A DNA stretch of 64,000 bases from an uncultured Alphaproteobacteria bacterium (GTDB taxonomy: Bacteria > Pseudomonadota > Alphaproteobacteria > Rs-D84), in NCBI GenBank assembly GCA_934232895.1, contig CAKQGH010000005.1:1422-65421 (forward strand), in the 5' to 3' direction. Each line of letters opens with the position of its first letter. Positions within the stretch are counted from its first letter, which is position 1. Positions 1,346 through 62,018 of the stretch are shown here, piece after piece. Both the position numbers and the translations under genes were made by a program. The notes under the pieces are model-generated. The model was not told the DNA's origin. It searched no databases and saw only the letters and a list, made by a program, of their open reading frames with translations.

Positions 1346-1528
1346 GTTTCTACTGTCGTTTTGCCCGCATTTGTATATGCCGCAGCCCCCGATAGTCTGG
1401 CCCAGCATAGCATACCCGAACGAAAATGCAAGCATAAAAGCGCAAATATTATAAGATTTTAATAAAATATTCGCAAGCAAAATCTGAAACATACTTTTAT
1501 TAAAATATGATTTTGGCGCACTTTTTGC

Positions 1529-1558
1529 TTGCAAGGCGCGGCACTTTTTGTCTACAAT
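1529..1558 (+). promoter_or_regulatory. Putative sigma70-type promoter for the virB8 operon
   Basis: TTGCAA (1529-1534) and TACAAT (1553-1558) are separated by an 18-nt spacer, about 27 nt upstream of the virB8 start. Confidence 0.4.
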
Positions 1559-1584
1559 CCACCCATACCAAGGAGAGATTTTCG

Positions 1585-2262
1585 TTGCAAGACCGCATAG
1601 AACCGCCAATTTTGCTGTCACGACTGGTTGTGTTCCTGTTCGCAGGGGCGGTTGTTGTGCTGGCCGCGTTGGGATTCACATTGTATAAAATGTTCCCACT
1701 GAACCGGCCCCAGGTGTATTTTTTAATGACCCAACCACGGGAAAATTTGGAGATAACATTGACCGAATTGCCCCCAACGGACGAAAATATGAAATGGTTT
1801 ATGCGCGCATTCATTCGTGAATATATCAAGGCGCGCAATGAAATCACCCCAGACAGTCGCGCAATGTTGCGCAAATGGAACAATGACGAAAATGGCGTTG
1901 TTCATACCTGGTCGACACCTGATGTTTATGCGGCATTCACCCAAACGAATATGTGGACCGCGTTGATGAACAACACACCCGATTTTGAATTCAGTTGCAG
2001 TGTTGAATTTGAAAACGGTGCAATTACCCCACGCACGGCCGACACATTCGCGGCAAGTTTCAAGTATTTTTGTGAAGATAGTGGTGGACAGACCGATAAA
2101 AAAGATTATACAATCATAGTGAAATTACAAATGGACGATAATGCCACATTAAAGTGGTCTGATCGTTTGGATAACCCGTTGGGGTTGCGTGTGTCAGAAT
2201 ATAAAATTGAATCTGGCAATGGCGATCCGCTGAACACGGGTTATCTGGCCAGTGGGGAATAG
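1585..2262 (+). CDS. virB8: Type IV secretion system protein VirB8-like
   Basis: A TTG start at 1585 is preceded by AAGGAGAG (1570-1577). The protein has a short N-tail, one TM helix (LVVFLFAGAVVVLAALGF), and a periplasmic domain with FIREYIKARNEI. It ends RLDNPLGLRVSEYKI, matching the conserved VirB8 NPLGF-x-V-x-x-Y motif. Confidence 0.85.
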   Translation: MQDRIEPPILLSRLVVFLFAGAVVVLAALGFTLYKMFPLNRPQVYFLMTQPRENLEITLTELPPTDENMKWFMRAFIREYIKARNEITPDSRAMLRKWNNDENGVVHTWSTPDVYAAFTQTNMWTALMNNTPDFEFSCSVEFENGAITPRTADTFAASFKYFCEDSGGQTDKKDYTIIVKLQMDDNATLKWSDRLDNPLGLRVSEYKIESGNGDPLNTGYLASGE

Positions 2263-2290
2263 TCCCATACAAAAAGCGAAGGACAGGGTT

Positions 2291-3823
2291 ATGATTTTTA
2301 AGACTGCGATTAAATTAAACATTTCGATTTTGTGTTTGGCGGCGTTTTGTGCATCGGCACATGCGGCGGGCATTAATTATGGCGTACAAGACGCATGGGA
2401 CAACCCAACCGCAAACATGGCATCGGGCAGTACCAAACCCGGATATGCCCAATTGTCATGGACCGCAGGCAGTGTTTTACCAATTAAATTGCGCAATGGA
2501 ATGGTGACCATGGTGTCATTGCCAAATGGCGAACAAATTTCCGACGCCGTTATCGGGAACCAGGGTCTGTTCACGATTGAGGCGAACCAAGGCGACCGCA
2601 CAATGATTATCAGCCCGGAATCCAGCAACCAGGGTTCGGACACAAACCTGATTGTGACGGGAAAATCTGGCAATAAATACATATTCTATTTGCGCAGTGA
2701 ACCATCTAATTCCAGTGAAATTACATATTCCCAGGTTGATGTTGTTTTGGATGGAAACGCAACATTGCCAAACGCCACGGGGGCGACAACCGCAACCGGT
2801 GGTGCATCGTCTATATTCAAAAAATCGGCCCCGGCATCGACCGTTGTTGGCGCCGATGGCGAAGATTATGGTTGGATTAAATCGATGAAGATTGATCCAT
2901 CGGAATTCCGTTTTGATTTGGATATATTTGTTCCAAACCCCGATGATTATGTGATTGCGCCCGAACGCGTATGGCGCGACAAAATATTCACATACATTGA
3001 TTTTGGGGACAAGGTCATCGCCATGACCCAGCGCCCGGTCGTATCATTATTGGTCGAGGGCGGCGAATCCCCGGTTGGTTTCCGCACCGATGGCGAAGAT
3101 GGTCGCCTGTTGATTGTCGAGGCCGTGGGCGATATGGTTCTGCGCAGCGGTCAACGCATTGTGTGCATTAAAAAGCGCGCCAAACCGTTCTTGATTGCCG
3201 ACACGGCGTCCGTCATGGCATTGGCCGAGGCGAATGTTGCCCAATCGATGATGTCGGGCCAATCGTTGAACAATATGGCATATACGATGGATCAAAATGC
3301 CATAAATGCCGCGGGTATAAATTACACCGGCACACCGGTCTATGTTGGCAATAACGACGCAATCAGTGGCACGGGATATTACATGCCGGCGGGCACAATG
3401 GCGACCACCGTTGCAACAACCGTGTCGGGCACAACATCGGGCGTGAATATGATGCCAACCGAACGTTTAACGGCGGGTTCGTATTTACCACAATCAAACA
3501 TTCCATTGATTACCAGCAACCAATCCGGCGTTGCGGTTGAATTAAAATCTGACACATCGGTCAAGGCATTGGATGAATACTGGACCGGTCTGTTGGCGAA
3601 ATTCAGTGGCGACGATGGCCAGGGATTATTGACCCCATATAAAGATATGGTGTTCTTTGCGGTTGACGAACAGGGTGTTGGCGAACTGGGCGCGACATCG
3701 CGTGCGGCGCGCCTGTACCGTTTGCGCATTGGACCTATGTCTGATATTGATACGGCGCAAAAATTGTGCGACCAGTTGCTGAAATTCAGCGGGGCCAGTT
3801 GCAGCGTTGTTCGGATTCAATAA
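2291..3823 (+). CDS. virB9: VirB9/CagX/TrbG-like T4SS outer-membrane core protein with a C-terminal SPOR-like domain
   Basis: The start is ATG 2291 and the signal peptide ends ASAHAAG. The N-domain reads VTMVSLPNGEQISDAVIGNQGLFTIE...TNLIVTGKSGNKYIFYL. The C-domain reads ERVWRDKIFTYIDFGD...VSLLVEGGESPVGFR...LRSGQRIVCIKK. An extra tail ends LYRLRIGPMSDIDTAQKLCDQLLKFSGASCSVV. Confidence 0.85.
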   Translation: MIFKTAIKLNISILCLAAFCASAHAAGINYGVQDAWDNPTANMASGSTKPGYAQLSWTAGSVLPIKLRNGMVTMVSLPNGEQISDAVIGNQGLFTIEANQGDRTMIISPESSNQGSDTNLIVTGKSGNKYIFYLRSEPSNSSEITYSQVDVVLDGNATLPNATGATTATGGASSIFKKSAPASTVVGADGEDYGWIKSMKIDPSEFRFDLDIFVPNPDDYVIAPERVWRDKIFTYIDFGDKVIAMTQRPVVSLLVEGGESPVGFRTDGEDGRLLIVEAVGDMVLRSGQRIVCIKKRAKPFLIADTASVMALAEANVAQSMMSGQSLNNMAYTMDQNAINAAGINYTGTPVYVGNNDAISGTGYYMPAGTMATTVATTVSGTTSGVNMMPTERLTAGSYLPQSNIPLITSNQSGVAVELKSDTSVKALDEYWTGLLAKFSGDDGQGLLTPYKDMVFFAVDEQGVGELGATSRAARLYRLRIGPMSDIDTAQKLCDQLLKFSGASCSVVRIQ

Positions 3824-3842
3824 TTGATGGCGGATGTTATAA

Positions 3843-6344
3843 ATGAATCGCATAAAAAAACAAATTGTAAATTTGCGTAAATCCACACCGCAAAGTGTCC
3901 AGTGGTTGTTGCTGGGCGCGGCGTTTATTGTGGTGCTGATTTTAATGACCATGTTGATTGGTGGCCGCGGGAACAAGCAAATTGCGACCGACGATGATGC
4001 GCCAATCGCATTGCGCACGGTTCCGGAAACGGAATCTGTGAATTGGGGGAATATTCGCGTTGGTACCACCGAAAAAGACAGCATAAAAATATTTGCATCT
4101 GCCCCGGCCAAGGTTATCAAGGTGCGTCTGAACCAGGATGTGCCGGGTTTTCGTGTTTCTGAAACATGTGGTCGTATGGCGCAAATAAACGAAAACACAT
4201 CGTGCACGATATCAATGGAATATGCGCCAACCGCGGCGGCCGATGTAATAACAACCGCATTGTTTATTGATTGGCGCGGCGCGGATCAACCCGACAAAAT
4301 GCAGAAAACCGATAAAATCGTATTGGTGTTGGGCGCCACCGCCCCGGAACAATCAAAAACCACAACGACCGGTTCCAATGCCGATACCACCAAGGCCCCC
4401 AGCGCGGCCGCCACAAAAAGCGAGCCCGCCCCCGCCCCATTTATTGACACACCCGCACCGACCAAGGCCGATATAAAACAAGAAATTGCAACAATTGCCC
4501 CATCGGATCCATTTACCGATGATGACGATGACTATGTCGCGCCGGCGCCCGCGAAAAAGGCCGAGCCCGCGGTTGTTGAACGCACCAATACCAAAAAGAC
4601 CGAGGCATGTTCCGCGTTTGCATTCCCGGGATATAATTCAACCGGCACACAAATCGGGTGGATAAAGCCCGAAAATGGCGCGTACTATTTTCATCCGTTT
4701 TCGGATAAAGAATGCAAAAATCCAACCGGGACATATAATCCCGACACCGGTTTAATTACCGATATAAAAAATGCCGGTAAAAAAATTGGAACCGATGCCG
4801 AACATATTGGGTACACCGCAATTGCATCAAATGGTGCGTTGCCGCAATTATCAAACCCGGTCCAGAAAAATAAAAACCGCGCATATCAATTGACCACCGA
4901 TGAATTGATGGCAATGGATGGCGCCATGTCTGGGGCCGAGGACGCATCGCGTTTCCGCGCCGGCATTACCATGAACATAAAACCAGATGACACGGTGTTT
5001 GGCACCAGTGGTATGGACGCGGTATTTTCATCCGACCCATTTGACCGTACGTTTGTGTTGCGCCAGTATAAACCAATTCCGGCCACCATTGTGTCCGAGG
5101 TTCGTGCCGACCCATCGTTATATGATGGAAAAGAAAAAAGTTTACCGGTACGCGCGACGGTTGACCGAAATGTATATTCCGACAATGGTCGCACAGTTGT
5201 TATACCGGCGGGCACATTGATGTTGGGATATGTCACGGGTGATATTCCGGGGCCATATAAAACAATTGGTCGTATGGATATTCGTTGGTACCAATTTATA
5301 TTGCCCAGTGGCGTTGAATTCAATTTTGATGGTGGTGGCGACACCGACCCATTTTCGGGCGATTCCCAGGGGCGCGTTGGTGTTCCCGGATACGGCAGTA
5401 CCGATTATGTGGAACAATTTGTTATGCCATTGCTGACATCGCTGGTGCCGGCGGCGGTGAATATGATTGCGCCAATATCGGACCGTTTTGTAAACCAAAT
5501 TGATTTGGATAATAACACCGTTGTTCAATCGGGTACCGTGCGTTCATCGGAATTGGCGAAAAATGAAATCATTACCGCATGGAACCAGGTTGCCCAGAAA
5601 TTAGTTGTAGATATGATGGACAACACCGTTCCGCCGTTTTCAATTGCGGCCGGCACACGCATAACCGTGTTTCCACCAACCGATTTGGTTTTAACCTGTG
5701 GCAGTGACGCCAGTAAAAAATGTTCTGTATCGACATTGGAACAAACCACCGGTTATGCCAATTTGAATCGTCGCAATCAGCGCGCTGATTGGAAACACAG
5801 TGGCGAGGTCGATTATGCCGATGGTTCATGGGTTGGCCAGGTTCGTTCATTTAACCTGAGCAGTGATTACTGCAAACAGGACAAAGATGGTCTGTGGGAT
5901 GTGAACGAGGACAACATCAGCGGCCTCTATTCCGAAGGGTATGATTACAGAACGATATTGATGTATTGCAAATCGCTGAATTACCAGGCGAAAAACAATG
6001 CGCGCCAGGATGCGGTGTACAAAAACCAACAGGAACAGTTCAAATCGACATACGAGGCCAGCGGCAGCGCCGGCGGCGTGTCGGGGCAAACTGTGTCGGG
6101 CAATCAGACATATAACACTGAAATATTGGGACTGAAATATAACGATGATGGTTCAATTCAAAATCCATTTGAATCATCGGCCAAAGGCGAAGAACAAGCC
6201 GCCCAGGCCATCATTACGTGCGAGGATGGCACCGCCCCAGATGCAAACGGATGCTGTACCGGTGAAATCTACACCGACATGGGCGAAGCCGGATTCAATT
6301 GTTGTCCCGAAACGGGTGGCGATTGTTTCCCGCCGATATTGTAA
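3843..6344 (+). CDS. virB10: VirB10/TrbI-like T4SS protein, unusually long (833 aa)
   Basis: The N-terminal TM helix is WLLLGAAFIVVLILMTMLIGG, followed by a Pro/Ala/Thr-rich linker. The TrbI-type core reads PATIVSEVRADP...LPVRATVDRNVYSDNGRTVVIPAGTLMLGYV...RMDIRWYQFILPSGVEF...DSQGRVGVPGY...AAGTRITVF. Extra N- and C-terminal modules are present. Confidence 0.85.
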   Translation: MNRIKKQIVNLRKSTPQSVQWLLLGAAFIVVLILMTMLIGGRGNKQIATDDDAPIALRTVPETESVNWGNIRVGTTEKDSIKIFASAPAKVIKVRLNQDVPGFRVSETCGRMAQINENTSCTISMEYAPTAAADVITTALFIDWRGADQPDKMQKTDKIVLVLGATAPEQSKTTTTGSNADTTKAPSAAATKSEPAPAPFIDTPAPTKADIKQEIATIAPSDPFTDDDDDYVAPAPAKKAEPAVVERTNTKKTEACSAFAFPGYNSTGTQIGWIKPENGAYYFHPFSDKECKNPTGTYNPDTGLITDIKNAGKKIGTDAEHIGYTAIASNGALPQLSNPVQKNKNRAYQLTTDELMAMDGAMSGAEDASRFRAGITMNIKPDDTVFGTSGMDAVFSSDPFDRTFVLRQYKPIPATIVSEVRADPSLYDGKEKSLPVRATVDRNVYSDNGRTVVIPAGTLMLGYVTGDIPGPYKTIGRMDIRWYQFILPSGVEFNFDGGGDTDPFSGDSQGRVGVPGYGSTDYVEQFVMPLLTSLVPAAVNMIAPISDRFVNQIDLDNNTVVQSGTVRSSELAKNEIITAWNQVAQKLVVDMMDNTVPPFSIAAGTRITVFPPTDLVLTCGSDASKKCSVSTLEQTTGYANLNRRNQRADWKHSGEVDYADGSWVGQVRSFNLSSDYCKQDKDGLWDVNEDNISGLYSEGYDYRTILMYCKSLNYQAKNNARQDAVYKNQQEQFKSTYEASGSAGGVSGQTVSGNQTYNTEILGLKYNDDGSIQNPFESSAKGEEQAAQAIITCEDGTAPDANGCCTGEIYTDMGEAGFNCCPETGGDCFPPIL

Positions 6345-31886: not shown

Positions 31887-32009
31887 TCCCTGACTTATAC
31901 AAGTCGGGGAGCTGTCTGTTATACAACAGGGTTTTACCCGAAAGCGACAGAATCATTGATAATTTGATTGCTAACTCCCCGACCGCCTGTCTTTGCTGGG
32001 CGGTTTTTT
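31887..32009 (+). promoter_or_regulatory. Structured leader element L3 with terminator, upstream of the lipoprotein pair
   Basis: The segments are TCCCTGAC (A), GTCGGGGAG (B) and CTCCCCGAC (C, a perfect complement of B). They are followed by ACCGCC-tgtctttgct-GGCGGT and a T-run ending 22 nt before the ATG. The layout matches L1 and L2. Confidence 0.4.
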
Positions 32010-32031
32010 CATTATAAAAAAGGATCCAGGA

Positions 32032-33315: not shown

Positions 33316-33329
33316 AAAAGGAGCAAATA

Positions 33330-34523
33330 ATGAAAAAAATAACAATTTTGACATCAATATTGGCATTGGCTGCATGTGGTGGGGTTTCTGGCGGGAACGG
33401 GCCAATTCCCCCATCAACAACAATTTCAGAACCAGAAACCCCAAATATAACAGTGCCAGCAGGGGCGCAAAACAGTAATCGGGCAATTACTTCTATGAAA
33501 TCCGAAATATTAGTTCCGAATAATTCCGGCACACACAGTATGACAGGTCGTTCATCAACCACACATATAAACGGTAAAGACTATACATCATACAGATTGG
33601 ATGATGTCAAATTTGAACAGTCTGGTTTTGACGGCGATTCTACAGATGAAACATATCTGAAATTTGGGCTGGACGAAAACGGAAAAATCATAAGATTGGA
33701 TGTGTTTAATGGGGATGAATCAAGAACACAAACCATCACTCGCGATTCAGACGATGCAAAAACTTTTTCTGAAACGTCCAAAAAATATACAATCAATTAC
33801 GGAGATAATGCCTCATACGAGATAAATACATCTATGGATACAAATCTGGATGATGACCTGGAATTTATATTAACGAAAGAAAACAATCCAGATAAAGACG
33901 CAATCCTGGCGGCCTATAAAGACAAAAAGTACACAACAGCAGATGTAAAAATAACTACAACATCAGACATGTATGGAAAAACATTATCCAAACCACTAAG
34001 TTATGCGGATTTTGGTTATGTCACACAAGTTTATGGAAACGACACAAACGGTGTTCATACAGTAATAACTGGTGGATACGAAATCAAAGCAATCGCCGAA
34101 GAAAATTTTGCATCAACAGATATGACTTTTACGGGCACGGCCATCGGGGCAATATCTGCCGAGACCAGCGACGGATACGATTCAAAACGAATAAAAACAG
34201 AAAATGGCACGGCAACTTTAACGTTCCAGGACGGCAAAGAAACTCTGACCATGCCATTTGACGATTACTACACGGTCACAGCCACCCGTGCACGTGGGGA
34301 ATCAGACCCGACACTGGAATTCACGGATTATAAAGGAACCGATGATAAATTTAAGTTTAACGAAACAACCCTAAACAACCGAGAAAATACCAGACTTCAC
34401 TTCCGTACGGGGTACTATGGCAACAATAACAATCCAACTGAAGCCATCGGTACTATATCCGTAGAACAAAACAACAACGGGGCACGCATTGGCTTTGATG
34501 CCGCATTTGGTGGCACAAGATAA
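33330..34523 (+). CDS. Paralogous surface lipoprotein with a TbpB/fHbp-like C-terminal pattern (397 aa)
   Basis: The first 18 residues (MKKITILTSILALAACGG) are identical to the upstream gene. Patterns are YADFGYV, MTFTGTAIGA, ATLTFQDGKETLTMPF and GYYGNNNNPTEAIGTISV, ending AAFGGTR. Confidence 0.85.
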   Translation: MKKITILTSILALAACGGVSGGNGPIPPSTTISEPETPNITVPAGAQNSNRAITSMKSEILVPNNSGTHSMTGRSSTTHINGKDYTSYRLDDVKFEQSGFDGDSTDETYLKFGLDENGKIIRLDVFNGDESRTQTITRDSDDAKTFSETSKKYTINYGDNASYEINTSMDTNLDDDLEFILTKENNPDKDAILAAYKDKKYTTADVKITTTSDMYGKTLSKPLSYADFGYVTQVYGNDTNGVHTVITGGYEIKAIAEENFASTDMTFTGTAIGAISAETSDGYDSKRIKTENGTATLTFQDGKETLTMPFDDYYTVTATRARGESDPTLEFTDYKGTDDKFKFNETTLNNRENTRLHFRTGYYGNNNNPTEAIGTISVEQNNNGARIGFDAAFGGTR

Positions 34524-54839: not shown

Positions 54840-55358
54840 TTAGTATCGACCGATGCACCCCAGGTATGAATTTCCAGTTGATTCCAGTATATTTATGAAC
54901 TGGCTTTGGTTTTTACCAGAAAACAGCGCCAATATCGTTCCGGCATCTGTGGCCAGCATATCGGCAACCGTCGCAATTCCCGAATTCATTTTCTTGAAAA
55001 AACCACTGGTCGGGTGAATTTCGGCGGCCAACAATTGATTTTGGCCATTTTTATGGCCACCCGCCACCGCATCACGCGATTGAATGACCATCAATTGACA
55101 TTCCGGGGAAATAATCAGTTTATCCGTCACAATTGCATCCGACCCCAGCAATTCGCCCCACCAACCCGTCGATTCACAAAAAACCGGGTAATATATTGTG
55201 GCATTCGGGTTATTGCGCATAATTTCCGCCACATCCAAATCATCGGTCATAACATCCGGCATAATACCCGTTGCCGTATTTATCACCCGTCGCGCCAAGC
55301 GGTAATCATTATCGCCGGTCGTTCTGCGTGGCCAATAAAGAATCGGAAACTGCTTCAT
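54840..55358 (-). CDS. Hypothetical protein (172 aa) downstream of the divergent VirB6-like paralog
   Basis: The ORF is clean, with no signal peptide or TM helix. I recognise no family. Confidence 0.55.
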   Translation of the reverse strand: MKQFPILYWPRRTTGDNDYRLARRVINTATGIMPDVMTDDLDVAEIMRNNPNATIYYPVFCESTGWWGELLGSDAIVTDKLIISPECQLMVIQSRDAVAGGHKNGQNQLLAAEIHPTSGFFKKMNSGIATVADMLATDAGTILALFSGKNQSQFINILESTGNSYLGCIGRY

Positions 55359-55426: not shown

Positions 55427-56716
55427 TTATTTTTTTATCGCGGCGTACCATTTTTTCAGGTTTCCCCATACAACATCGATGTTCTTTTTCGTGGTTTCAT
55501 AGAACGATGTTGGTATGGTTACATTTGCAAACAAAGTCTTGACCAGTGCGGGTATCATCGTCATAAACATGGCGATAAATATGCCCATCAATATGATTGT
55601 AATCAGACTGTCGTTGCGCATCATCAGCCCGTCCATCAAAATATGCGAATCGTTTTGTGCCAATGCCGCCGCCAACCGATTCGCACCGTTCCAACGCCCA
55701 AATATGGCATTCAAAAACATAACTGCGAATGTGATAAACACGCCAACCATTGCAATTCCCGCGGTACCACGCACAACATCGTCAATAATAGCCTTGATAT
55801 TTTTTCCACCATTTGGGAATATCGGCCACCCGGCGAACAACCACGACAGCAACATAAACGGAATCATTATCAAATCCATGGACAATTTGATAAATATTTC
55901 CAAAAAATACAGCGGTATTGGCAACAGCGCCGCAAAAAACAACACCAGCACCAACAGCCCCGCGAAAAATATTGGCACATTCGGGAACACTGGGACATCC
56001 CACATAATTTTGTGCATATATTGTTCGTTAAACGCCATATTTAACATGGTCCATCCAACGGTCATACCCAATCCGGTCATTTGGTGAACATTGCCAACCT
56101 CGCACGCCAAGTTATGGCGCAGGCGCGGCGAATATGCCCCAGCAGCGGCGGCGGTCGCATCAACCGATACCGGATCCGCAATTGCGGTTGCAACCACACA
56201 ATTTGAAAACGCATCATTACCCGCAACCACACGATTCAGCGACAGTCCAATATTAAAAACAGGCTCAATAACAATCGACGACAGCATTCGCGGCAATGGC
56301 ACCGCCAACAATGCGCACACCACGCCCAATTTTATAATTTGCGTACCGAACATACCAGCCAATGACCATGGGGTATCAACCTTGGCATTCATAAAACCGT
56401 TTAATAATTTCCAAGCGAACCAAACCGCAGTCAATCCCGCTGCGAATGGAATTATTACCGTGCCAATTGCATGATATATGCCGGGCAAAATATTTGACAT
56501 AGTTTGCATAATGTCTGCAAACATCTGGCACGACCAACACGATGAAAAGAAATTCATTGCATCCGCCATATTCGTTGGTGCCGCCGTGCGATATATTGAA
56601 AAACCCGCAATCACTCCCAGACCCGCAATACCGCCAACAACCAATGGCGCAACGGCCCCAGCCGAAAAAGGCAGGAATGATAAAAAAATCATCCAAAAAT
56701 TTTTTAGCTTGTTCAT
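55427..56716 (-). CDS. Polytopic membrane protein, paralog 1 (VirB6/TrbL-like by architecture)
   Basis: The start at MNKLKNFW (56716) avoids overlap with the divergent gene. It has about 8 hydrophobic helices, an N-proximal CWSC motif, a loop Cys pair, and a C-terminal tail IDVVWGNLKKWYAAIKK shared with paralogs 2 and 5. The functional call is an inference. Confidence 0.6.
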   Translation of the reverse strand: MNKLKNFWMIFLSFLPFSAGAVAPLVVGGIAGLGVIAGFSIYRTAAPTNMADAMNFFSSCWSCQMFADIMQTMSNILPGIYHAIGTVIIPFAAGLTAVWFAWKLLNGFMNAKVDTPWSLAGMFGTQIIKLGVVCALLAVPLPRMLSSIVIEPVFNIGLSLNRVVAGNDAFSNCVVATAIADPVSVDATAAAAGAYSPRLRHNLACEVGNVHQMTGLGMTVGWTMLNMAFNEQYMHKIMWDVPVFPNVPIFFAGLLVLVLFFAALLPIPLYFLEIFIKLSMDLIMIPFMLLSWLFAGWPIFPNGGKNIKAIIDDVVRGTAGIAMVGVFITFAVMFLNAIFGRWNGANRLAAALAQNDSHILMDGLMMRNDSLITIILMGIFIAMFMTMIPALVKTLFANVTIPTSFYETTKKNIDVVWGNLKKWYAAIKK

Positions 56717-56725
56717 CGCTTTAAG

Positions 56726-56755
56726 TATATCACATTTTGTCCCAAATGTGATATA
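56726..56755. promoter_or_regulatory. Perfect 12-bp palindrome in the divergent promoter region
   Basis: tatatcacattt and aaatgtgatata flank a tgtccc spacer. The right arm overlaps TGaTATAAT (56749-56757), an extended -10 facing paralog 2. Confidence 0.8.
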
Positions 56756-56787
56756 ATTGAACAGATAAATTAAATCGCAGTCAGAGA

Positions 56788-58089
56788 ATGTATTTCGCAC
56801 CACGCAAATTTTTACACCGCATCGCACGTGCCACGGCCATGTTGGCGGCGGCACTGTGCCTGGTAGGCGCGCCATCGGCGGCATTTGCACAGTATGAAAT
56901 TGTCGATGCGTTTAACCTGGCGCCGTTTGTACCGATGGTGCTTGATGCACTGATGGCGGTCGCAACCGGCGGTTACGAATTTTTTGTTGGGTCCGGGGAC
57001 GGCATTATTTATGTTTTGGTGTGGGGCTTCCTGGCGGTGTCGGTTGCGCTGTATTTGGTGAAATTATATTTCCCAAAAATATGGGTTTCATTTTTTGGTT
57101 TTTCGGGTGGTGGCGATATGGCGGGCGGCAAGGTCGGCGGTCAAACCATTGTTATGAATGTTCTGCATCCCGGGTTTCGCGCATTGATTGCGGCCGTGTT
57201 GTTATTACAAATCAGACCCGTATTTTTAACACAATGGCTGGTAAATCCATTTTTACAATTTGGCGCATTATATACGCACGCAATTACCGAAACAGTGAAT
57301 GCAACCGGCACCGCCACACCGCGAGTGGAATGTCCCGAGGCGATTGTGCAAAAGGCATGGATAAGTAAATCATCGTGCGAGTTTCTGGTTCAACCGGTAT
57401 CGGATATTTCATACGCCAATAACCGCGTTATCAAAAGCGGATTTGAATTTATCAATCGGGGGCTGCGCGGGCTGGTCACATTGGTGCCACATGGGGGCGA
57501 AGATTTCTTGAACATAATCACCGGTATATTGTTGGTATCTGCATTTGTTGGGTCCAACCTGTTTATGGCGTTGTTGATTATCCAGGGTATATTTAATTTT
57601 GGCATGGCGTTGGTTCTGTACCCGTTCCAAGTTTTAACTTGGGTTGCCAAACCAAAAAATCCAGACAAATGGTTTGATATACTGCCGGCGTTTTCTGGAA
57701 TTACAAAATCATTACAGCAATTGATTATCACCATGATTGCATGCGCGTTTATACTGTGCATAAATGTGGCGGTGATAAAATCGCTGTTCAGTTGGAACAG
57801 TTCCGTGTTTGTTGTTGCGGCGGGCGGCACGGCCACAAGCAATGTTCCACAAATGTCTGGGGCAATGGGATTTGGCGCACATTCAATATTGTGGTTGTCG
57901 TCAATAATGACATTCTATTTGATGTTTCGCATATTTGAATTGACGCGTAAACAATTGGATTCCTATGTCGGCAGTGGTATGGACGATTTGTACAAGAAAG
58001 CAACCGGCGACACCAAACGCGTTTGGGCAAACACCAAAGATTGGGGTAAAAAAATCGGCAAAGCAATTGGATGGTTGGGCAAGAAATGA
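56788..58089 (+). CDS. Polytopic membrane protein, paralog 2 (VirB6/TrbL-like by architecture)
   Basis: It has a signal-like N-terminus (MLAAALCLVGAPSAAFA), multiple TM helices, and the loop Cys pair VECPEA...SSCEF. The tail reads TKRVWANTKDWGKKIGKAI. Confidence 0.6.
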   Translation: MYFAPRKFLHRIARATAMLAAALCLVGAPSAAFAQYEIVDAFNLAPFVPMVLDALMAVATGGYEFFVGSGDGIIYVLVWGFLAVSVALYLVKLYFPKIWVSFFGFSGGGDMAGGKVGGQTIVMNVLHPGFRALIAAVLLLQIRPVFLTQWLVNPFLQFGALYTHAITETVNATGTATPRVECPEAIVQKAWISKSSCEFLVQPVSDISYANNRVIKSGFEFINRGLRGLVTLVPHGGEDFLNIITGILLVSAFVGSNLFMALLIIQGIFNFGMALVLYPFQVLTWVAKPKNPDKWFDILPAFSGITKSLQQLIITMIACAFILCINVAVIKSLFSWNSSVFVVAAGGTATSNVPQMSGAMGFGAHSILWLSSIMTFYLMFRIFELTRKQLDSYVGSGMDDLYKKATGDTKRVWANTKDWGKKIGKAIGWLGKK

Positions 58090-59282
58090 ATAACTGGATG
58101 AATTCTTTGGTTGATTCTTCGGTTCAGTGTTGGGGCTGTGGCGTGTTTGACCGACTGTTTCAAATTGTGTCGGTGGCGGCCGCATCGGTGTACAAACAAT
58201 TTGCAATAATTTGTGCGATTATATTTTGCGTGCTGTTTGCGTTCTTTGCCGTAAATGCCGTGTGGCAAAATATCAAGGGCGGCGTCGGCGACCCGTGGTA
58301 TAAAAAATCAATTCGTCCCGTGTTTATAAATGCTTTGGTTGCAATGGCATTTTTGGGCATGGGCGTTATGTTGCCACGCGCCATGACACAAATTACATTT
58401 GAACCCACGGCGCAAATTGCATTGATATATACGCAAAGTATGTTACAGACGAATTCCGACACCGTAAATGCCAAGGTGACATATCAACCCACAAAAATGG
58501 ATGACAACGGATTTTTCCGCCCGCAATTGCGCGATACAATTATATTGCTGATGAAAACAACCATTACACAATTTCAATCGTATATGAAACTGGGCATTGC
58601 GATGATGGACAACGCATTTTCATGGCGCGCAATTTTGGACATTGGCACATTGATTAAACATATAATTATGTTCGCCATTGGATTGTATCTGTTTTATGGA
58701 TTTTTCAAATTGTTCGTGCGTTTTTGTTTCTATTTCGCCGATATTATCATAGCAATGACATTCTTTGCATTTTTCTTTCCACTGTCGTTGGTTATGATGT
58801 CGTTTCGTGGTGCATCCGATATTCCAAAATGGATGTCGGGCATTGGCGCAAAATTAGGCACCGGGCAATTCAAAAATTTGATAAACGCAATCATTGCATT
58901 GGCGGCGGCGGTTTTAACATATACCGTTATGATGGTGGTTATTGCAAAATTCTTTTCCGCACCTGGTGCGTCGGCCGCCGAATTGATGCAAAACATTTTG
59001 TCGGGCAATGTATTTGCGGGCGACCTGTCCGATGCAAATGTTGCAACATTGACCATTACCAGCAGTGTCGTTTTGGTATATGTATTAAATTTCATATACG
59101 GCCAAATACCCAAGGTCACAAAAATGGTTTTGTCGGCGTTTGATGTTGATGCCGACCATAAACTGGGCGACCAATTGGCCGATGACGCATTGGGCGTATC
59201 CAAGAAAATAATAGACGCATTGGCAACCACCGGAAAAACTATTCTGGCGGGCGGCGAAACAAAATCAGGTGGCACAAAATGA
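58086..59282 (+). CDS. Polytopic membrane protein, paralog 3
   Basis: An ATGA overlap joins it to the paralog 2 stop. It has an N-proximal CWGC motif followed by FDRLF, and multiple TM helices. Confidence 0.6.
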   Translation: MNNWMNSLVDSSVQCWGCGVFDRLFQIVSVAAASVYKQFAIICAIIFCVLFAFFAVNAVWQNIKGGVGDPWYKKSIRPVFINALVAMAFLGMGVMLPRAMTQITFEPTAQIALIYTQSMLQTNSDTVNAKVTYQPTKMDDNGFFRPQLRDTIILLMKTTITQFQSYMKLGIAMMDNAFSWRAILDIGTLIKHIIMFAIGLYLFYGFFKLFVRFCFYFADIIIAMTFFAFFFPLSLVMMSFRGASDIPKWMSGIGAKLGTGQFKNLINAIIALAAAVLTYTVMMVVIAKFFSAPGASAAELMQNILSGNVFAGDLSDANVATLTITSSVVLVYVLNFIYGQIPKVTKMVLSAFDVDADHKLGDQLADDALGVSKKIIDALATTGKTILAGGETKSGGTK

Positions 59283-60712
59283 TGAAAGCAAAATTGATTT
59301 CCATTGCCATCAAATTTGTTATGGGTGCAATCGCACTGGGGTTGGGAATTTGGTATTTATCATCGTCAATCAGTGGCGCCGCATTGACATACACCAGTAT
59401 GGATAATTTTATGACCGCAATTGGCGCGGGGGGTGGCGATATTGCCGGGGCAAACGGATGCTTTATGTGCAAATATGTTGCCGAATTATTTGGTGTTATT
59501 GGGCGCGCTGCGGAAATGTTCTGGGTGGCGATGTTGGACAACATTTGGATATTGCTGGCGGTTGGGTTTGGAATATTTCTGTTTATATATACCGCGCAAT
59601 ATATTTTTGATGCCGCTAAAAAGACCGCCGCATTGGACGCCAAAGAAAAAAAATTGGAATTCGCCGGATGGTTCGACAAAGTATGGCGCCAGGCCGCCCG
59701 CATAATGTTGGTGGGCGCGGTACTAGGCACATTGGGTATGGGCGGCACGGGCGCGTTGCGCGCAATATCAAACATCACAATCACGCCTGTATTATATGTT
59801 GGTGCCGAATTATCCATGGCGGCATCGGGCGTCAATGACGCCAGCAAATGCGTGGCGGCAAATGTTGAAACCGACGATTTATTAAATCCAATACTGCAAC
59901 CATTTATGTGCACCATGGGCAATTTGAACAGCGTTATGCTGGCGGGCGCCGCAGGCGGATTTGCAATGATGAATTATGCGTGGCTGGGCATGGGCGGTGG
60001 CGCATTTACATGGATTGCGGGACTGGCGTTGGTTATAATGTTTTTAATTATTGGATTCGATTTATTTTTCCAGGTATTATCTGTCATATTCAAACTGGTG
60101 TTTTTAATTGTGTTTATGCCGTTGCTGATTGCGGCCACCGCATTCGAAGGCACATGGAAATTGGCCAGTGGTGTTGTGGCGAATGCGGTCAGTATGCTGG
60201 TTAAATCGGCCGTACGCATTGTGGCAATTTCACTGAAAATTTTAATTATCTATGCAACGGTATCTTTTGCCGCCGACGAATTTTTCCCCGGCCCCCACGA
60301 TGGGTACAGTGCGATATTGCCACCATTGATGGGGCGCACCGCACAAAACCCAGGCGCCCAAACATTATCGGTAATGAATGTATTTGCAACATGTGAACGC
60401 GTTGCATTGTCCGACGGCAAAATGGATGCGGCGAAATTCAAGGACTGTTTCACGGCCCAGCGCAATATGGTTGAACGCAAATATCCCGGCGCATTTGATT
60501 TTATGGGTGACGGATTTGAATTCTTGATAATGATGATATTTATGTTCGTGTTATATTTCCATATTGTGTCGCCACGCGTTGATGCAATTTTGGGCAAGGA
60601 TTCCAAAGAGCAATTTGATTTCGGCGCCTGGACCCGCGATCTGGGTAAAAAGATTTGGTCTGCGCCACAACAAATATTTGATGCCATATCTAAATCAATG
60701 GGGAACAAATAG
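59279..60712 (+). CDS. Polytopic membrane protein, paralog 4
   Basis: An ATGA overlap joins it to the paralog 3 stop. It has the CFMC motif followed by YVAELF, and the loop Cys pair SKCVAA...FMCTMG. Confidence 0.6.
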   Translation: MMKAKLISIAIKFVMGAIALGLGIWYLSSSISGAALTYTSMDNFMTAIGAGGGDIAGANGCFMCKYVAELFGVIGRAAEMFWVAMLDNIWILLAVGFGIFLFIYTAQYIFDAAKKTAALDAKEKKLEFAGWFDKVWRQAARIMLVGAVLGTLGMGGTGALRAISNITITPVLYVGAELSMAASGVNDASKCVAANVETDDLLNPILQPFMCTMGNLNSVMLAGAAGGFAMMNYAWLGMGGGAFTWIAGLALVIMFLIIGFDLFFQVLSVIFKLVFLIVFMPLLIAATAFEGTWKLASGVVANAVSMLVKSAVRIVAISLKILIIYATVSFAADEFFPGPHDGYSAILPPLMGRTAQNPGAQTLSVMNVFATCERVALSDGKMDAAKFKDCFTAQRNMVERKYPGAFDFMGDGFEFLIMMIFMFVLYFHIVSPRVDAILGKDSKEQFDFGAWTRDLGKKIWSAPQQIFDAISKSMGNK

Positions 60713-60714
60713 TA

Positions 60715-62016
60715 ATGAACCATATAGTGCGATTTTTATCAAAAATAATTCTGTGTGCCGCATTGATGTTTTGCACCCCACTGCATGCCGCGTCGAACAT
60801 TCCGACAACGGGCGACATCGGTGAATACGGCGCATGGACCACGCAACATAATCTGGATTTGGTCACGAATAATTTAACAACCGATTTAACCGAATTCCAA
60901 TCGGGGTTTGAATCGAAACAATTGGTAAAAAACTATGTCCCAATCGAGGCCAAAGTTGGTATGGCGTTTATGAATGCGCTGTCGTTGGTTGGTGAAATTT
61001 TGGATTCATCACTGGTGCGTTTTGTCGTGATATTTATTATTGCGGCATACATATTCTGGATTATGTTCGATACATATCAAATGATGACCACCAAATCCAA
61101 TGTGCGTGATTTGGTAAAAAGCATTGTAAAGCGCGGCATCACAATTGCGATATGGATTATTATATTGGAAATGGGTCCGGCACGCGTGTTTATGTGGGTG
61201 ATGGGGCCGATTATTATGGTGGGAACATACCTGTCCGATTTAATATTAAATTCGGTTGCAGGTATTGCCGGCGTGTCATTGCCCGACACATGTGGCGCCA
61301 TTCGCGAATATGCCGCGGCGCATACATCAACGCGGATGCTGGTTGATGCTAATGCCGCCGCCGATATGATGTGTGTGCCAACGCGTTTGTCCGGATTTTT
61401 CTATACCGCGGTTGCGGCCGGGTTCAAATGGATGATTGCCGGCATCGGGCACAGCGCATTTACATTTGTTGTTGGTGCGGTATTCGTTGTGATATTTACA
61501 TATAACGCGTTCAAGTTTGCTTTTATGGCATTGGGCGTGATTGCCGATTTGTTTATGTCGGTATTGATGTTGCCGTTTACCGCAATTGCCGAAACCGTTG
61601 GTAAAACATCGTACAAGGGTATTGCCGGCACAATATTCAATGGATTTTTGGGCCTGTTCAAGGTTGAATCTTTGTCCGCACAAATTCAACGCTTTATAAA
61701 CGCGGCGCTGTATTTCGTATCACTGTCTATTGTGGTGGCATTGTGTGCGGGTCTGTTGTCGGGCACAATCAGCACGAACATGGCATCAGACATCCCGACA
61801 TTGGAACATGGTGATTTTATGATAACATTGCTGACCGGGGCATTGGTTGCGTACCTGGCCAACCGTGCGGGTGAAATTGCCAAAAACCTGGGTGGCAGTA
61901 TAAACGACAGTTTCGGCACCCAATTCAAGAAAGATGTCGCCCGCGTATGGAACGACACATATACCACGGTGAAAAAATTTGCCGAAATTGTTCGCAAGGA
62001 TGGCGAGACAAAATAA
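60715..62016 (+). CDS. Polytopic membrane protein, paralog 5
   Basis: It starts 2 nt after the paralog 4 stop. It has a signal-like N-terminus (LCAALMFCTPLHA) and the loop Cys pair DTCGAI...MMCVPT. The tail reads VARVWNDTYTTVKKFAEIV. Confidence 0.6.
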   Translation: MNHIVRFLSKIILCAALMFCTPLHAASNIPTTGDIGEYGAWTTQHNLDLVTNNLTTDLTEFQSGFESKQLVKNYVPIEAKVGMAFMNALSLVGEILDSSLVRFVVIFIIAAYIFWIMFDTYQMMTTKSNVRDLVKSIVKRGITIAIWIIILEMGPARVFMWVMGPIIMVGTYLSDLILNSVAGIAGVSLPDTCGAIREYAAAHTSTRMLVDANAAADMMCVPTRLSGFFYTAVAAGFKWMIAGIGHSAFTFVVGAVFVVIFTYNAFKFAFMALGVIADLFMSVLMLPFTAIAETVGKTSYKGIAGTIFNGFLGLFKVESLSAQIQRFINAALYFVSLSIVVALCAGLLSGTISTNMASDIPTLEHGDFMITLLTGALVAYLANRAGEIAKNLGGSINDSFGTQFKKDVARVWNDTYTTVKKFAEIVRKDGETK

Positions 62017-62018
62017 TC

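What the first reader, a model, noticed from the sequence alone, without database searches (positions are those of the whole stretch)
55427..62016. Five paralogous polytopic membrane proteins: one divergent gene plus a four-gene translationally coupled array
Five ORFs of about 400-477 aa each have 6-9 hydrophobic helices. Three carry an N-proximal C-x-x-C followed by an aromatic-rich helix: CWSCQMFADIM, CWGCGVFDRLF and CFMCKYVAELF. Four carry a Cys pair in a central soluble loop. Three share a basic amphipathic C-terminal tail with (V/I)W.N.K.W. Paralogs 2-5 are joined by ATGA overlaps or 2-nt gaps. Multiplied VirB6/TrbL-like genes are known from Rickettsiales rvh systems. Those proteins are much larger, however, and the usual upstream virB3-virB4 is absent here. 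Either this is a compact VirB6 expansion belonging to the virB8-10 genes 49 kb away, or it is a distinct, undescribed membrane-protein family.
Basis: partly seen in the sequence, partly recalled or inferred. Interest (0 to 1): 0.7.

Follow-up and report, generated by a model that had tools for sequence, protein, structure and literature searches.

The report
Five hidden VirB6-like secretion-channel paralogs
A gut bacterium with a tiny genome (Candidatus Enterousia) carries five very divergent copies of VirB6, the membrane protein at the base of type IV secretion machines; standard annotation models miss all five, and the arrangement resembles the five-copy VirB6 array so far treated as a Rickettsiales hallmark.

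Summary
Five adjacent genes encode polytopic membrane proteins of 398-477 aa: P1 on the minus strand, and P2-P5 on the plus strand joined by two ATGA overlaps and one 2-nt gap. The layout is kept in all 80 Enterousia-like species loci that are long enough. All five are under purifying selection (dN/dS about 0.06-0.2). The N-proximal CxxC (P1, P3, P4) and the central Cys pair (P1, P2, P4, P5) are invariant in about 70-80 orthologs each.

Pfam, NCBIfam and PDB sequence searches give nothing directly. Three indirect lines point to TrbL/VirB6:
- A P1 profile finds 146 remote relatives, and 28 of 72 scanned hit Pfam TrbL in the matching region.
- A superfamily profile matches genuine VirB6 proteins (hhalign 82%, up to 26 bits; at most 10 bits for reversed, shuffled or unrelated membrane controls).
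- AlphaFold models of P1 and P3 both return R388 TrwI/VirB6 as the top PDB hits.

These are therefore a divergent, unannotated "CWxC" branch of the VirB6 superfamily. They most likely form the stalk base of the equally divergent VirB8-10 system 49 kb away. That functional link is inferred, not shown: no VirB4, VirB11 or VirD4 could be located. I rate it a new variant of a known kind.

The parts
55427..56716 (-). P1: VirB6-like paralog, 429 aa, transcribed divergently from the other four. N-terminal signal or anchor segment, CWSC at 60-63, central-loop Cys173/Cys205, basic C-terminal tail.
   Evidence: ORF and start codon. 897 homologs, none with a Pfam domain or a name among the best 120 listed. 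Cys residues invariant. AF2 pLDDT 76, with R388 TrwI/VirB6 as top Foldseek hits. dN/dS 0.07-0.10.
56788..58089 (+). P2: VirB6-like paralog, 433 aa. Cleavable-looking signal peptide (..SAAFA|QYE), no CxxC, Cys182/Cys197 pair, basic tail KRVWANTKDW. First gene of the four-gene operon.
   Evidence: Linked to the family through P5 (hhalign 92.5%) and through outgroup proteins that hit the P2 HMM at 28-35 bits. Superfamily HMM 171 bits. The signal-peptide cleavage site was read by eye.
58086..59282 (+). P3: VirB6-like paralog, 398 aa. No N-terminal extension, CWGC at 15-18 at the N-cap of a long first helix. Invariant F240 and W249 after the core Pro, resembling the canonical VirB6 F-x9-W spacing.
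   Evidence: ATGA overlap with P2. Invariant columns. AF2 pLDDT 86, pTM 0.81, about seven long helices plus several short ones. TrwI/VirB6 takes ranks 1-4 and 7 in Foldseek.
59279..60712 (+). P4: VirB6-like paralog, 477 aa. N-terminal anchor, CFMC at 61-64, Cys191/Cys211 and an extra Cys372/Cys390 pair.
   Evidence: ATGA overlap with P3. Cys residues invariant in 76 sequences. hhalign to P5 89%. The outgroup protein L088_13174 hits the P4 HMM at 66 bits.
60715..62016 (+). P5: VirB6-like paralog, 433 aa. Signal peptide (..PLHA|AS), no CxxC, Cys193/Cys220 pair. Fastest-evolving copy. Its stop lies 2 nt from the convergent uvrD-like stop.
   Evidence: dN/dS 0.12-0.22. The signal-peptide cleavage site was read by eye.
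56724..56757 (.). Shared control region in the 71-bp divergent spacer. The palindrome TATATCACATTT-N6-AAATGTGATATA reads as two back-to-back extended -10 boxes: TGATATAAT towards P2 and TGATATACT towards P1. Each box overlaps the other's -35 position.
   Evidence: Best promoter-like matches in the region, 10/12 and 9/12, both with TG. Sequence. In most of the 79 loci compared the arms are conserved while the 6-bp spacer varies. Function is inferred.
54840..55358 (-). orf172: soluble 172-aa protein of unknown family, directly downstream of P1 on the same strand. Possibly co-transcribed with P1.
   Evidence: Conserved in this position in 80 of 80 loci at 63-99% identity. No Pfam, NCBIfam or PDB sequence match. 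Whether it belongs to the system is unknown.
1507..6344 (+). virB8 (1507-2262), virB9 with a C-terminal SPOR domain (2252-3823) and an 833-aa virB10 (3843-6344). This is the only other T4SS locus in the window and the presumed partner machinery.
   Evidence: Pfam VirB8 1.4e-11, CagX 9.6e-21, TrbI 9.5e-16. NCBIfam scores are far below the curated cut-offs: 23.5 against 188, 50.9 against 218 and 57.4 against 220. The whole system is therefore highly divergent. The flanks are housekeeping genes.

Best explanation
The five genes encode paralogous, very divergent members of the TrbL/VirB6 superfamily. They belong to a branch marked by a periplasm-facing C-W-x-C at the start of the first long helix.

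Most likely they are the VirB6 component of a chromosomal, highly diverged VirB/D4-type (P-type) type IV secretion system in Candidatus Enterousia. That organism is a gut alphaproteobacterium of order Rs-D84 with a genome of about 0.9 Mb. Its virB8-virB9-virB10 genes lie 49 kb away.

By analogy with R388 TrwI/VirB6, each protein would anchor in the inner membrane by its first two hydrophobic helices. The remaining helices would contribute to a periplasmic stalk base or proto-channel that passes substrate, or pilin, towards the VirB9/VirB10 outer-membrane complex. The conserved Cys motifs would form periplasmic disulfides that stabilise this assembly.

The back-to-back promoters and the translational coupling would deliver the five proteins together and in fixed ratios.

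Shown: five real, conserved, selected paralogs; invariant Cys motifs; remote VirB6 homology; an unannotated clade; virB8-10 in the same genome.

Inferred: that they work with virB8-10; topology; disulfides; stoichiometry; co-regulation.
For: Homology to VirB6:
- A P1 profile search of 1.84 billion representatives gave 146 hits at E<=1e-3.
- Of 72 full-length remote hits, 28 match Pfam TrbL PF04610 (best 1.2e-8). No other membrane-protein family recurs among these hits; the only other family matched by more than two members is Peptidase_M23, in 8.
- In P0171, P0176 and P0181 the TrbL match (model positions about 76-191) lies inside the stretch aligned to P1 residues about 235-345.
- A profile built from 93 remote domains plus the five paralogs aligns to an Agrobacterium-type VirB6 family at 82% probability, E 1.1e-5. 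The aligned stretch is the core P-x4-(G/S)(Y/W)xF(D/E)xT(R/K) region.
- That profile scores up to 25.9 bits on 117 real VirB6 proteins, with 31 above 15 bits. It always maps HMM positions about 237-384 to VirB6 residues about 153-290.
- Controls stay low: reversed sequences peak at 4.6 bits, locally shuffled ones at 9.7, and six other polytopic proteins from this window at -2.6.
- Two independent AF2 models return R388 TrwI/VirB6 chains as the top PDB hits out of 350,542 chains. P1 (pLDDT 76) gives ranks 1-4 and 6, probability 0.97-1.0. P3 (pLDDT 86) gives ranks 1-4 and 7.
- The P3 model has about seven long helices plus several short ones, comparable with the seven described for TrwI (PMC9259494).

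Real, functional genes:
- Five-gene synteny holds across 80 species loci.
- dN/dS is 0.06-0.22.
- The Cys residues are invariant.

Context:
- virB8, virB9 and virB10 are in the same window and are themselves far below the NCBIfam cut-offs. A VirB6 that escapes the models is therefore expected.
- No other VirB6 candidate lies in the 64 kb.

Precedent:
- A review cites a report that the four Ehrlichia VirB6 paralogs are expressed and interact (Bao et al. 2009, reference list of PMC12857230). I did not read that paper.
Against: - None of the five hits TrbL, TraG_N or any other Pfam or NCBIfam model, even at E<=1.
- Family profiles A2, A3, A4 and A7 do not find TrwI or any other VirB6 among PDB sequences.
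- Narrow family-against-family hhalign to VirB6 is null.
- Foldseek E-values are only 0.007-0.2 and TM-scores 0.23-0.50.
- The essential VirB6 Trp is not aligned or conserved in P1 and P5.
- No virB3 or virB4 lies next to the array, here or within 10 kb of related arrays in seven other MAG contigs.
- No VirB4, VirB11, VirD4 or VirB2 is present in the window. I could not search the rest of the genome for them.
Confidence: 0.62

Rival explanations
1. The proteins descend from VirB6 but no longer serve a type IV secretion system. The array would be a separate envelope module, for example a membrane platform that anchors or exports periplasmic enzymes, or a DNA or nutrient uptake channel. The virB8-10 genes would be unrelated or a remnant.
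For: - Related arrays never sit next to virB4 or virB3 within 10 kb. They are flanked by housekeeping genes instead.
- In 8 of 72 relatives the domain is fused to an M23 peptidoglycan peptidase.
- virB11 and virD4 do not follow virB10 in the window.
- Enterousia reportedly lacks standard sugar, amino-acid and peptide transporters and encodes many unexplained membrane proteins (PMC12306168).
Against: - To my knowledge the TrbL/VirB6 domain is known only from T4SSs.
- Scattered T4SS genes are normal in reduced alphaproteobacterial genomes; Rickettsia has five islets.
- An M23 fusion fits the T4SS need for a VirB1-like cell-wall hydrolase.
- In L089 a 71-aa two-helix gene just upstream of the array gives a weak TrbC/VirB2 pilin match, E 0.011.
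- virB8-10 are intact, long ORFs.
Confidence: 0.22
2. This is a distinct, unrelated family of polytopic membrane proteins. The resemblance to VirB6 would come from hydrophobic composition and from all-helical folds matching each other.
For: - There are no direct Pfam, NCBIfam or PDB sequence hits.
- The three TrbL hits whose scores I inspected (25.6, 21.2 and 17.3 bits) are below the 25.9-bit gathering score.
- Foldseek E-values are above 0.001 and RMSD is 9-12 A.
- The hhalign match covers only 73 columns.
Against: - Reversed, shuffled and unrelated-membrane-protein controls score at most 9.7 bits against 25.9 for real VirB6.
- 28 of 72 relatives hit the same Pfam family in the same register, and no other membrane family recurs.
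- Two separate models each rank VirB6 chains first among 350,542 chains.
- A shared sequence motif is visible by eye.
Confidence: 0.08
3. Only one copy is the working VirB6. The others are redundant duplicates drifting towards loss.
For: - P5 evolves fastest, at 46-70% identity across the genus.
- R. massiliae has lost virB6e.
Against: - All five are intact in every locus long enough to show them.
- dN/dS is 0.06-0.22 for each gene.
- Copy-specific Cys patterns are invariant.
- The genome is strongly reduced and about 90% coding, so dispensable genes should already have been lost.
Confidence: 0.03

Closest known systems
Rickettsia RvhB6a-e (five tandem VirB6 paralogs of the Rickettsiales vir homolog T4SS; Gillespie et al. 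2009, PMC2653234)
   Same: - Five paralogs in one chromosomal array in a reduced alphaproteobacterial genome.
- The copies are about 80% divergent from each other and recognisably similar only in a short hydrophobic core.
- The VirB6 domain is about 413 aa, close to the 398-477 aa here.
- T4SS genes are scattered in islets away from virB8-10.
   Different: - RvhB6 proteins are 668-1154 aa with large flanking regions, and several of them are annotated TrbL/VirB6 in the R. typhi records listed in PMC2653234. I did not scan them myself.
- They follow virB3-virB4 and are all in one orientation.
- Here there are no flanks and no virB3/4, one copy is divergent, and standard models miss all five.
- The CWxC and loop Cys pairs define this clade. 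I could not check whether RvhB6 has them.
- The host is an Rs-D84 gut bacterium, not a member of Rickettsiales.
- Shared ancestry against independent expansion was not tested.
R388 TrwI/VirB6 and A. tumefaciens VirB6 (canonical VirB6; PDB 7O3V, 8RT9, 8RTD; PMC9259494)
   Same: - Top structural match for both AF2 models.
- About seven long helices, with hydrophobic helices at the N-terminus and in the C-terminal half.
- A large central soluble segment.
- The core motif P-x4-(G/S)(Y/W)xF(D/E)xT(R/K) is recognisable in the clade.
   Different: - Canonical proteins are about 260-350 aa, single-copy, encoded between virB5 and virB7, and have no CxxC (0 of 117).
- They carry an essential Trp after the core motif that is not conserved in P1 and P5.
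- Sequence identity is about 10-13%.
Anaplasmataceae VirB6-1 to VirB6-4 (Ehrlichia, Anaplasma, Wolbachia)
   Same: Multiple tandem VirB6 paralogs. A review cites a report that the paralogs are expressed and interact (Bao et al. 2009, cited in PMC12857230). That supports the idea that several paralogs work in one machine.
   Different: There are four copies, of the extended type (about 800 to over 2000 aa, from my own knowledge), and they follow virB3-virB4. They are from obligate intracellular bacteria.
Unannotated CWxC VirB6-like arrays in other alphaproteobacterial MAGs (loci L082, L084, L086-L091 fetched here)
   Same: - Same superfamily by direct HMM hits of 40-110 bits.
- A nearly invariant CWxC.
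- Tandem, translationally coupled arrays, five members in L084 and in L088.
- Chromosomal, with housekeeping flanks.
   Different: - Most members are larger, 600-1500 aa, with N-terminal extensions.
- Some are fused to an M23 peptidase.
- In L082, L084 and L088 an 86-91-aa two-helix gene comes directly before the array; L089 has an unrelated 71-aa one. The window has no homolog of these small proteins.

Membership tests
TrbL/VirB6 (Pfam PF04610) | Match to the family HMM at or above the gathering score (25.9 bits) | tested here: not met
   None of the five proteins gives any Pfam or NCBIfam hit at E<=1. Of 72 remote relatives found with the P1 profile, 28 do match (best 1.2e-8; three inspected at 25.6, 21.2 and 17.3 bits).
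TrbL/VirB6 (Pfam PF04610) | Detectable homology to bona fide VirB6 by profile methods | tested here: met
   The superfamily profile against the Agrobacterium-type VirB6 family gives hhalign 82%, E 1.1e-5. hmmsearch reaches 25.9 bits, against 4.6 for reversed, 9.7 for shuffled and -2.6 for other membrane proteins. Narrow profiles alone give nothing.
TrbL/VirB6 (Pfam PF04610) | VirB6 fold: about seven long helices, with an N-terminal hydrophobic hairpin plus C-terminal hydrophobic helices | tested here: met
   AF2 models of P1 (pLDDT 76) and P3 (pLDDT 86) both have TrwI/VirB6 chains as top Foldseek PDB hits, probability up to 1.0. E-values are weak (0.007-0.2) and TM-scores are 0.23-0.50.
TrbL/VirB6 (Pfam PF04610) | Conserved core motif around the Pro-containing helix, followed by the essential Trp | tested here: inconclusive
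   The motif is clear in remote clade members, for example P0171 MPLLVVSWVFDYTKK against At GPLILTGYIFDRTRD. It is degenerate in P1-P5. A possible equivalent Trp is invariant in P3 (W249) and present in P2, but it is not aligned in P1 or P5.
TrbL/VirB6 (Pfam PF04610) | Encoded with other T4SS genes (virB3/virB4/virB5 or virB7-11) | tested here: not met
   The flanks are the inositol monophosphatase gene and orf172 on one side and a UvrD-like helicase on the other. virB8-10 are 49 kb away. No virB4, virB11 or virD4 is in the window. Genome-wide presence could not be tested.
TrbL/VirB6 (Pfam PF04610) | Pentameric assembly at the stalk base, contacting VirB5, VirB2 and VirB8 | not testable with these tools
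   No multimer prediction was available. The pentamer is known from R388 (PMC9259494).
Rickettsiales vir homolog (rvh) T4SS | Multicopy VirB6 | tested here: met
   Five paralogs, conserved across the genus.
Rickettsiales vir homolog (rvh) T4SS | Duplicated VirB4, VirB8 and VirB9, and no VirB5 analog (hallmarks listed in PMC11077975) | not testable with these tools
   The window shows one virB8 and one virB9. The rest of the genome could not be searched.
Rickettsiales vir homolog (rvh) T4SS | Islet organisation: virB3-virB4-virB6(n) and virB8-virB9-virB10-virB11-virD4 | tested here: not met
   No virB3 or virB4 lies before the array. virB10 is followed by a 1.1-kb stretch with only short unannotated ORFs and then an unrelated minus-strand gene, not by virB11-virD4.
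Rickettsiales vir homolog (rvh) T4SS | Host belongs to the order Rickettsiales | tested here: not met
   The nearest genomes are Candidatus Enterousia, which PMC12306168 places in the uncultured order Rs-D84. Some NCBI records label relatives 'Rickettsiales bacterium'. No phylogeny was made here.
F-type TraG_N / T4BSS DotA (other VirB6-like families) | Match to the TraG_N (Pfam) or DotA/TraY (NCBIfam) models | tested here: not met
   No hits in Pfam or NCBIfam at E<=1. Neither family is among the 12 listed for the 72 relatives.

The most novel reading that the evidence does not exclude
The five paralogs assemble one-of-each into a hetero-pentameric VirB6 stalk base. The homo-pentamer seen in R388 would have been replaced by five specialised subunits locked together by periplasmic disulfides (CxxC and loop Cys pairs). 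The translational coupling and the shared back-to-back promoters would exist to enforce 1:1:1:1:1 stoichiometry. The same logic would explain the unexplained five RvhB6 of Rickettsia and the five-member arrays in L084 and L088. It would also mean that multicopy VirB6, treated as a Rickettsiales signature, is older or more widespread than that order.
Probability: 0.2. Interest if true: 0.8.

Novelty: new variant of a known kind. Interest (0 to 1): 0.55.

Why it matters
VirB6 is the least understood core part of type IV secretion machines. Why Rickettsiales keep four or five very different copies has been an open question since 2009.

This locus shows the same five-copy pattern in compact form, about 400-480 aa with essentially no flanking regions. 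It comes from a different lineage that is abundant in animal and human guts, and it has about 80 species-level orthologs per copy for co-evolution analysis. That makes the hetero-pentamer idea directly testable with multimer prediction and covariation.

It also shows that current Pfam and NCBIfam models miss a whole VirB6 branch. All 30 relatives I looked up are unnamed, hypothetical, or in one case labelled only as an M23 metallopeptidase. T4SSs are therefore probably under-counted in reduced-genome alphaproteobacterial MAGs.

A secretion system in a bacterium of about 0.9 Mb that lacks a TCA cycle, respiration and standard transporters hints at a host- or partner-dependent lifestyle for Enterousia. 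That is speculation until the ATPases are found.

Tried and rejected
- Direct Pfam and NCBIfam scans of the five proteins gave nothing useful. The only rows were two chance prenyl-synthase hits for P2 at E 0.03-0.3.
- PDB sequence searches with profiles of P1, P3 and P5 and with the mixed alignment A7 found no VirB6, only chance hits.
- hhalign of A7 against the single A. tumefaciens VirB6 gave 1.2%. Each narrow family against the VirB6 family gave below 1%. The signal appeared only after broadening the query profile with 93 remote domains.
- tblastn of a TrbL-positive relative (P0171) against 72,556 plasmids found no match. The clade does not look plasmid-borne.
- The R388 accession BR000038 is not in the plasmid collection. 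I used pTiC58 VirB6 instead.
I used alignments of window proteins plus database proteins instead (A7, A8).
- I looked in the window for a homolog of the small two-helix gene that precedes related arrays and found none.
- I looked for VirB4, VirB11 and VirD4 among all ORFs of at least 150 aa in the window. All are housekeeping or efflux genes.
- I found no tool route to search the rest of an Enterousia genome.
- Pseudogene or decay explanation: rejected on synteny and dN/dS.
- Tandem-repeat or assembly artefact: rejected, because the copies are only about 20% identical and each has its own orthologs.

Full report
**1. What is there**

The region holds five long ORFs. After correcting two starts against orthologs and the raw sequence, the genes are:

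| Gene | Coordinates | Strand | Length |
|---|---|---|---|
| P1 | 55427-56716 | - | 429 aa |
| P2 | 56788-58089 | + | 433 aa |
| P3 | 58086-59282 | + | 398 aa |
| P4 | 59279-60712 | + | 477 aa |
| P5 | 60715-62016 | + | 433 aa |

- P2/P3 and P3/P4 share ATGA start-stop overlaps. P4/P5 are 2 nt apart.
- P5's stop lies 2 nt from the stop of a convergent UvrD-like helicase gene.
- Each protein has 6-9 hydrophobic segments.
- No other ORF in the 64 kb belongs to the family.

**2. Organism and conservation**

- A P1 search returned 897 homologs. None of the best 120 listed carries a Pfam domain or a source name.
- A scan of one genome per GTDB species returned 80 loci. They come from gut MAGs labelled Candidatus Enterousia, 'uncultured Alphaproteobacteria' or 'Rickettsiales bacterium'. 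One Hadza gut MAG is 98% identical.
- Enterousia belongs to the uncultured order Rs-D84. Its genomes are 0.75-1.0 Mb and lack a TCA cycle, a respiratory chain and standard transporters (PMC12306168).
- Every locus long enough shows the same layout, P1 divergent and P2-P5 tandem, at 46-83% protein identity.
- dN/dS against five orthologs is 0.06-0.22 for each gene. dS is saturated, so the values are approximate.
- These are five functional genes, not debris.

**3.

- The CxxC of P1 (C60/C63), P3 (C15/C18) and P4 (C61/C64) is invariant in about 70-80 orthologs per gene.
- So is the central pair of P1 (C173/C205), P2 (C182/C197), P4 (C191/C211) and P5 (C193/C220).
- P1 positions are one lower because Met1 was left out.
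- P2 and P5, the two copies without CxxC, instead begin with cleavable-looking signal peptides. P1 and P4 begin with a hydrophobic anchor or signal segment. P3 has only 14 residues before its CxxC. These N-terminal assignments were read from the sequences by eye.

**4. Paralogy**

- Pairwise identity is only about 20%, at 37-45 bits.
- Profile-profile comparison of the five ortholog alignments links P1-P3 (97%), P2-P5 (92.5%), P1-P5 (92%) and P4-P5 (89%). The first three matches are collinear over about 290-340 columns and the P4-P5 match covers 141.
- Proteins from related arrays in other MAGs hit several of the five HMMs in register. One 457-aa protein scores 66, 66, 48 and 45 bits on P1, P4, P3 and P5. 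A 640-aa protein adds P2 at 35 bits.
- The five are one family.

**5. What family: direct tests fail**

- Pfam and NCBIfam give nothing for any of the five at E<=1.
- PDB sequence searches with family profiles miss VirB6.
- Narrow profile-profile comparisons with A. tumefaciens VirB6 and its family are null.

**6. Three indirect lines converge on TrbL/VirB6**

(a) Intermediate sequences.
- A P1 profile search of 1.84 billion representatives found 146 proteins at E<=1e-3. Many are 600-1500 aa, with the matching domain internal.
- Of 72 scanned, 28 match Pfam TrbL (best 1.2e-8) and 8 carry Peptidase_M23. No other membrane family recurs.
- In three inspected cases the TrbL match lies inside the stretch aligned to P1.

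(b) A broadened profile.
- I built a profile from 93 remote domains plus the five paralogs.
- It aligns to the VirB6 family at 82% probability, E 1.1e-5, over the core helix and loop.
- It scores up to 25.9 bits on 117 real VirB6 proteins, always in the same register.
- Reversed sequences reach 4.6 bits, locally shuffled ones 9.7, and six unrelated polytopic proteins from this window -2.6.
- The shared motif is visible by eye: clade MPLLVVSWVFDYTKK against VirB6 GPLILTGYIFDRTRD. It is degenerate in the five window proteins, which explains why the models miss them.

(c) Predicted structure.
- AF2 models of P1 (pLDDT 75.9, pTM 0.70) and P3 (pLDDT 86.3, pTM 0.81) each return R388 TrwI/VirB6 chains as the best hits among 350,542 PDB chains.
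- Probabilities are 0.77-1.0, but E-values are only 0.007-0.2 and TM-scores 0.23-0.50.
- A low TM-score is expected when a monomer model is compared with the splayed subunit of an assembled pentamer.
- The P3 model has about seven long helices plus several short ones, comparable with the seven described for TrwI (PMC9259494).

I take membership of the VirB6 superfamily as likely (about 0.85). The family's own model threshold is not met.

**7. What is different from known VirB6**

- The clade carries a nearly invariant C-W-x-C at the start of the first long helix: 89 of 98 domains have CxxC there and 59 have CWxC. None of 117 canonical VirB6 proteins has any CxxC.
- In the P3 model C15 sits at the helix N-cap and C18 in the first turn.
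- In R388 only helices 1 and 2 cross the membrane and the rest lies in the periplasm. If that topology holds here, both the CxxC and the loop pair face the periplasm. The signal peptides of P2 and P5 and the anchors of P1 and P4 fit this.
- Disulfide formation is an inference. A redox or metal-binding role of the CxxC is not excluded.
- All 30 relatives looked up are unnamed, 'hypothetical', or in one case 'M23 family metallopeptidase', from alphaproteobacterial MAGs. None lies on a known plasmid.

**8. Context and the T4SS link**

- The window encodes virB8, virB9 (with a SPOR domain) and an 833-aa virB10 at 1507-6344, flanked by nusG, secE and tRNA-Trp.
- They score far below the NCBIfam cut-offs. 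The whole system is very diverged.
- Nothing else in the window is T4SS-related.
- Related arrays in seven other MAG contigs are also chromosomal, are translationally coupled and have no virB4 within 10 kb. Two of them (L084, L088) have exactly five tandem members.
- In one of these arrays (L089) a 71-aa two-helix gene upstream gives a weak TrbC/VirB2 match, E 0.011. L082, L084 and L088 have an unrelated 86-91-aa two-helix gene in the same position. The window has no homolog of these small proteins.
- The link to the virB8-10 machine therefore rests on homology and on presence in the same genome, not on synteny. I could not check for VirB4, VirB11 or VirD4 elsewhere in the genome.

**9. Expression signals**

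- The 71-bp P1/P2 spacer holds the palindrome TATATCACATTT-N6-AAATGTGATATA.
- Each arm reads as an extended -10 box, TGATATAAT towards P2 and TGATATACT towards P1. These are the two best promoter-like matches locally.
- In most of the 79 loci compared the arms are conserved and the spacer is free.
- The P1-side box ends about 7 nt before the ATG, so P1 may be leaderless.
- This suggests joint control of all five genes. It is not shown.

**10. Comparison with what is known**

- The closest analogue is the Rickettsia rvh system. It has five RvhB6 about 80% divergent from each other, a VirB6 domain of about 413 aa, conservation only in a short region, and genes scattered in five islets (PMC2653234).
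- Multicopy RvhB6 is listed as an rvh hallmark, and rvh is called 'a bona fide rickettsial signature' (PMC11077975).
- Differences here: no large flanking regions, no virB3-virB4, one inverted copy, no virB11-virD4 after virB10, and a different order of bacteria.
- Whether the quintuplication is shared with Rickettsiales or convergent is untested.
- VirB6 forms a pentamer in R388. Five paralogs made in fixed ratios invite a one-of-each hetero-pentamer. I rate that at about 0.2.

**11. Verdict**

- It is a new variant of a known kind, and an annotation blind spot.
- Interest is moderate to good, mainly because it offers a compact, ortholog-rich system for asking why some T4SSs need five VirB6 proteins.

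Noticed in passing
window 56724-56757: Palindrome TATATCACATTT-N6-AAATGTGATATA in the 71-bp P1/P2 spacer. It reads as two back-to-back extended -10 promoters, each overlapping the other's -35 position. In most of the 79 loci compared the arms are conserved while the spacer varies. It could equally be an operator for a dimeric regulator. The P1-side box ends about 7 nt before the ATG, so P1 may be leaderless.
   Followed up: partly
window 54840-55358 (-): A 172-aa soluble protein with no Pfam, NCBIfam or PDB sequence match lies directly downstream of P1 on the same strand. It is conserved there in 80 of 80 loci at 63-99% identity. It may be a sixth member of the module.
   Followed up: partly
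window 31993-34523 (+): Two tandem paralogous lipoproteins of 440 and 397 aa share the signal MKKITILTSILALAACGG and a C-terminal ..GFGG motif. They have no family match and sit in the lowest-GC stretch of the window (39% against about 46%). They may be surface lipoproteins.
   Followed up: no
window 2252-6344 (+): VirB9 carries a C-terminal SPOR (peptidoglycan-binding) domain. VirB10 is 833 aa, with a weak N-terminal 'choice-of-anchor D' match and a Cys-rich C-terminal tail (..CEDGTAPDANGCCTGEIYTDMGEAGFNCCPETGGDCFPPIL). All three Vir proteins score far below the NCBIfam cut-offs.
   Followed up: partly
L085 731-4609; L089 8479-12474 (relatives P0207, P0400): In 8 of 72 remote relatives the VirB6-like domain occurs in a protein that also carries an M23 peptidoglycan peptidase domain, in proteins of about 1000-1330 aa. 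This could be a built-in VirB1-like cell-wall hydrolase.
   Followed up: partly
L084 4967-5227; L088 7780-8055; L082 1015-1275; L089 1762-1977: A small 71-91-aa gene with two hydrophobic helices comes directly before the VirB6-like arrays in other MAGs. The L089 one has a weak TrbC/VirB2 pilin match (E 0.011). The window has no counterpart.
   Followed up: partly
L087 15409-16404; L089 12610-13581; L091 16021-17013: A protein of about 330 aa with two HTH_3 domains, followed by large proteins with no family (719-1061 aa), recurs just downstream of VirB6-like arrays in three unrelated MAG contigs.
   Followed up: no
window 62014-62021: The P5 stop (TAA) and the stop of the convergent UvrD-like helicase gene are 2 nt apart. 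That leaves no room for a terminator between the two convergent transcription units.
   Followed up: no
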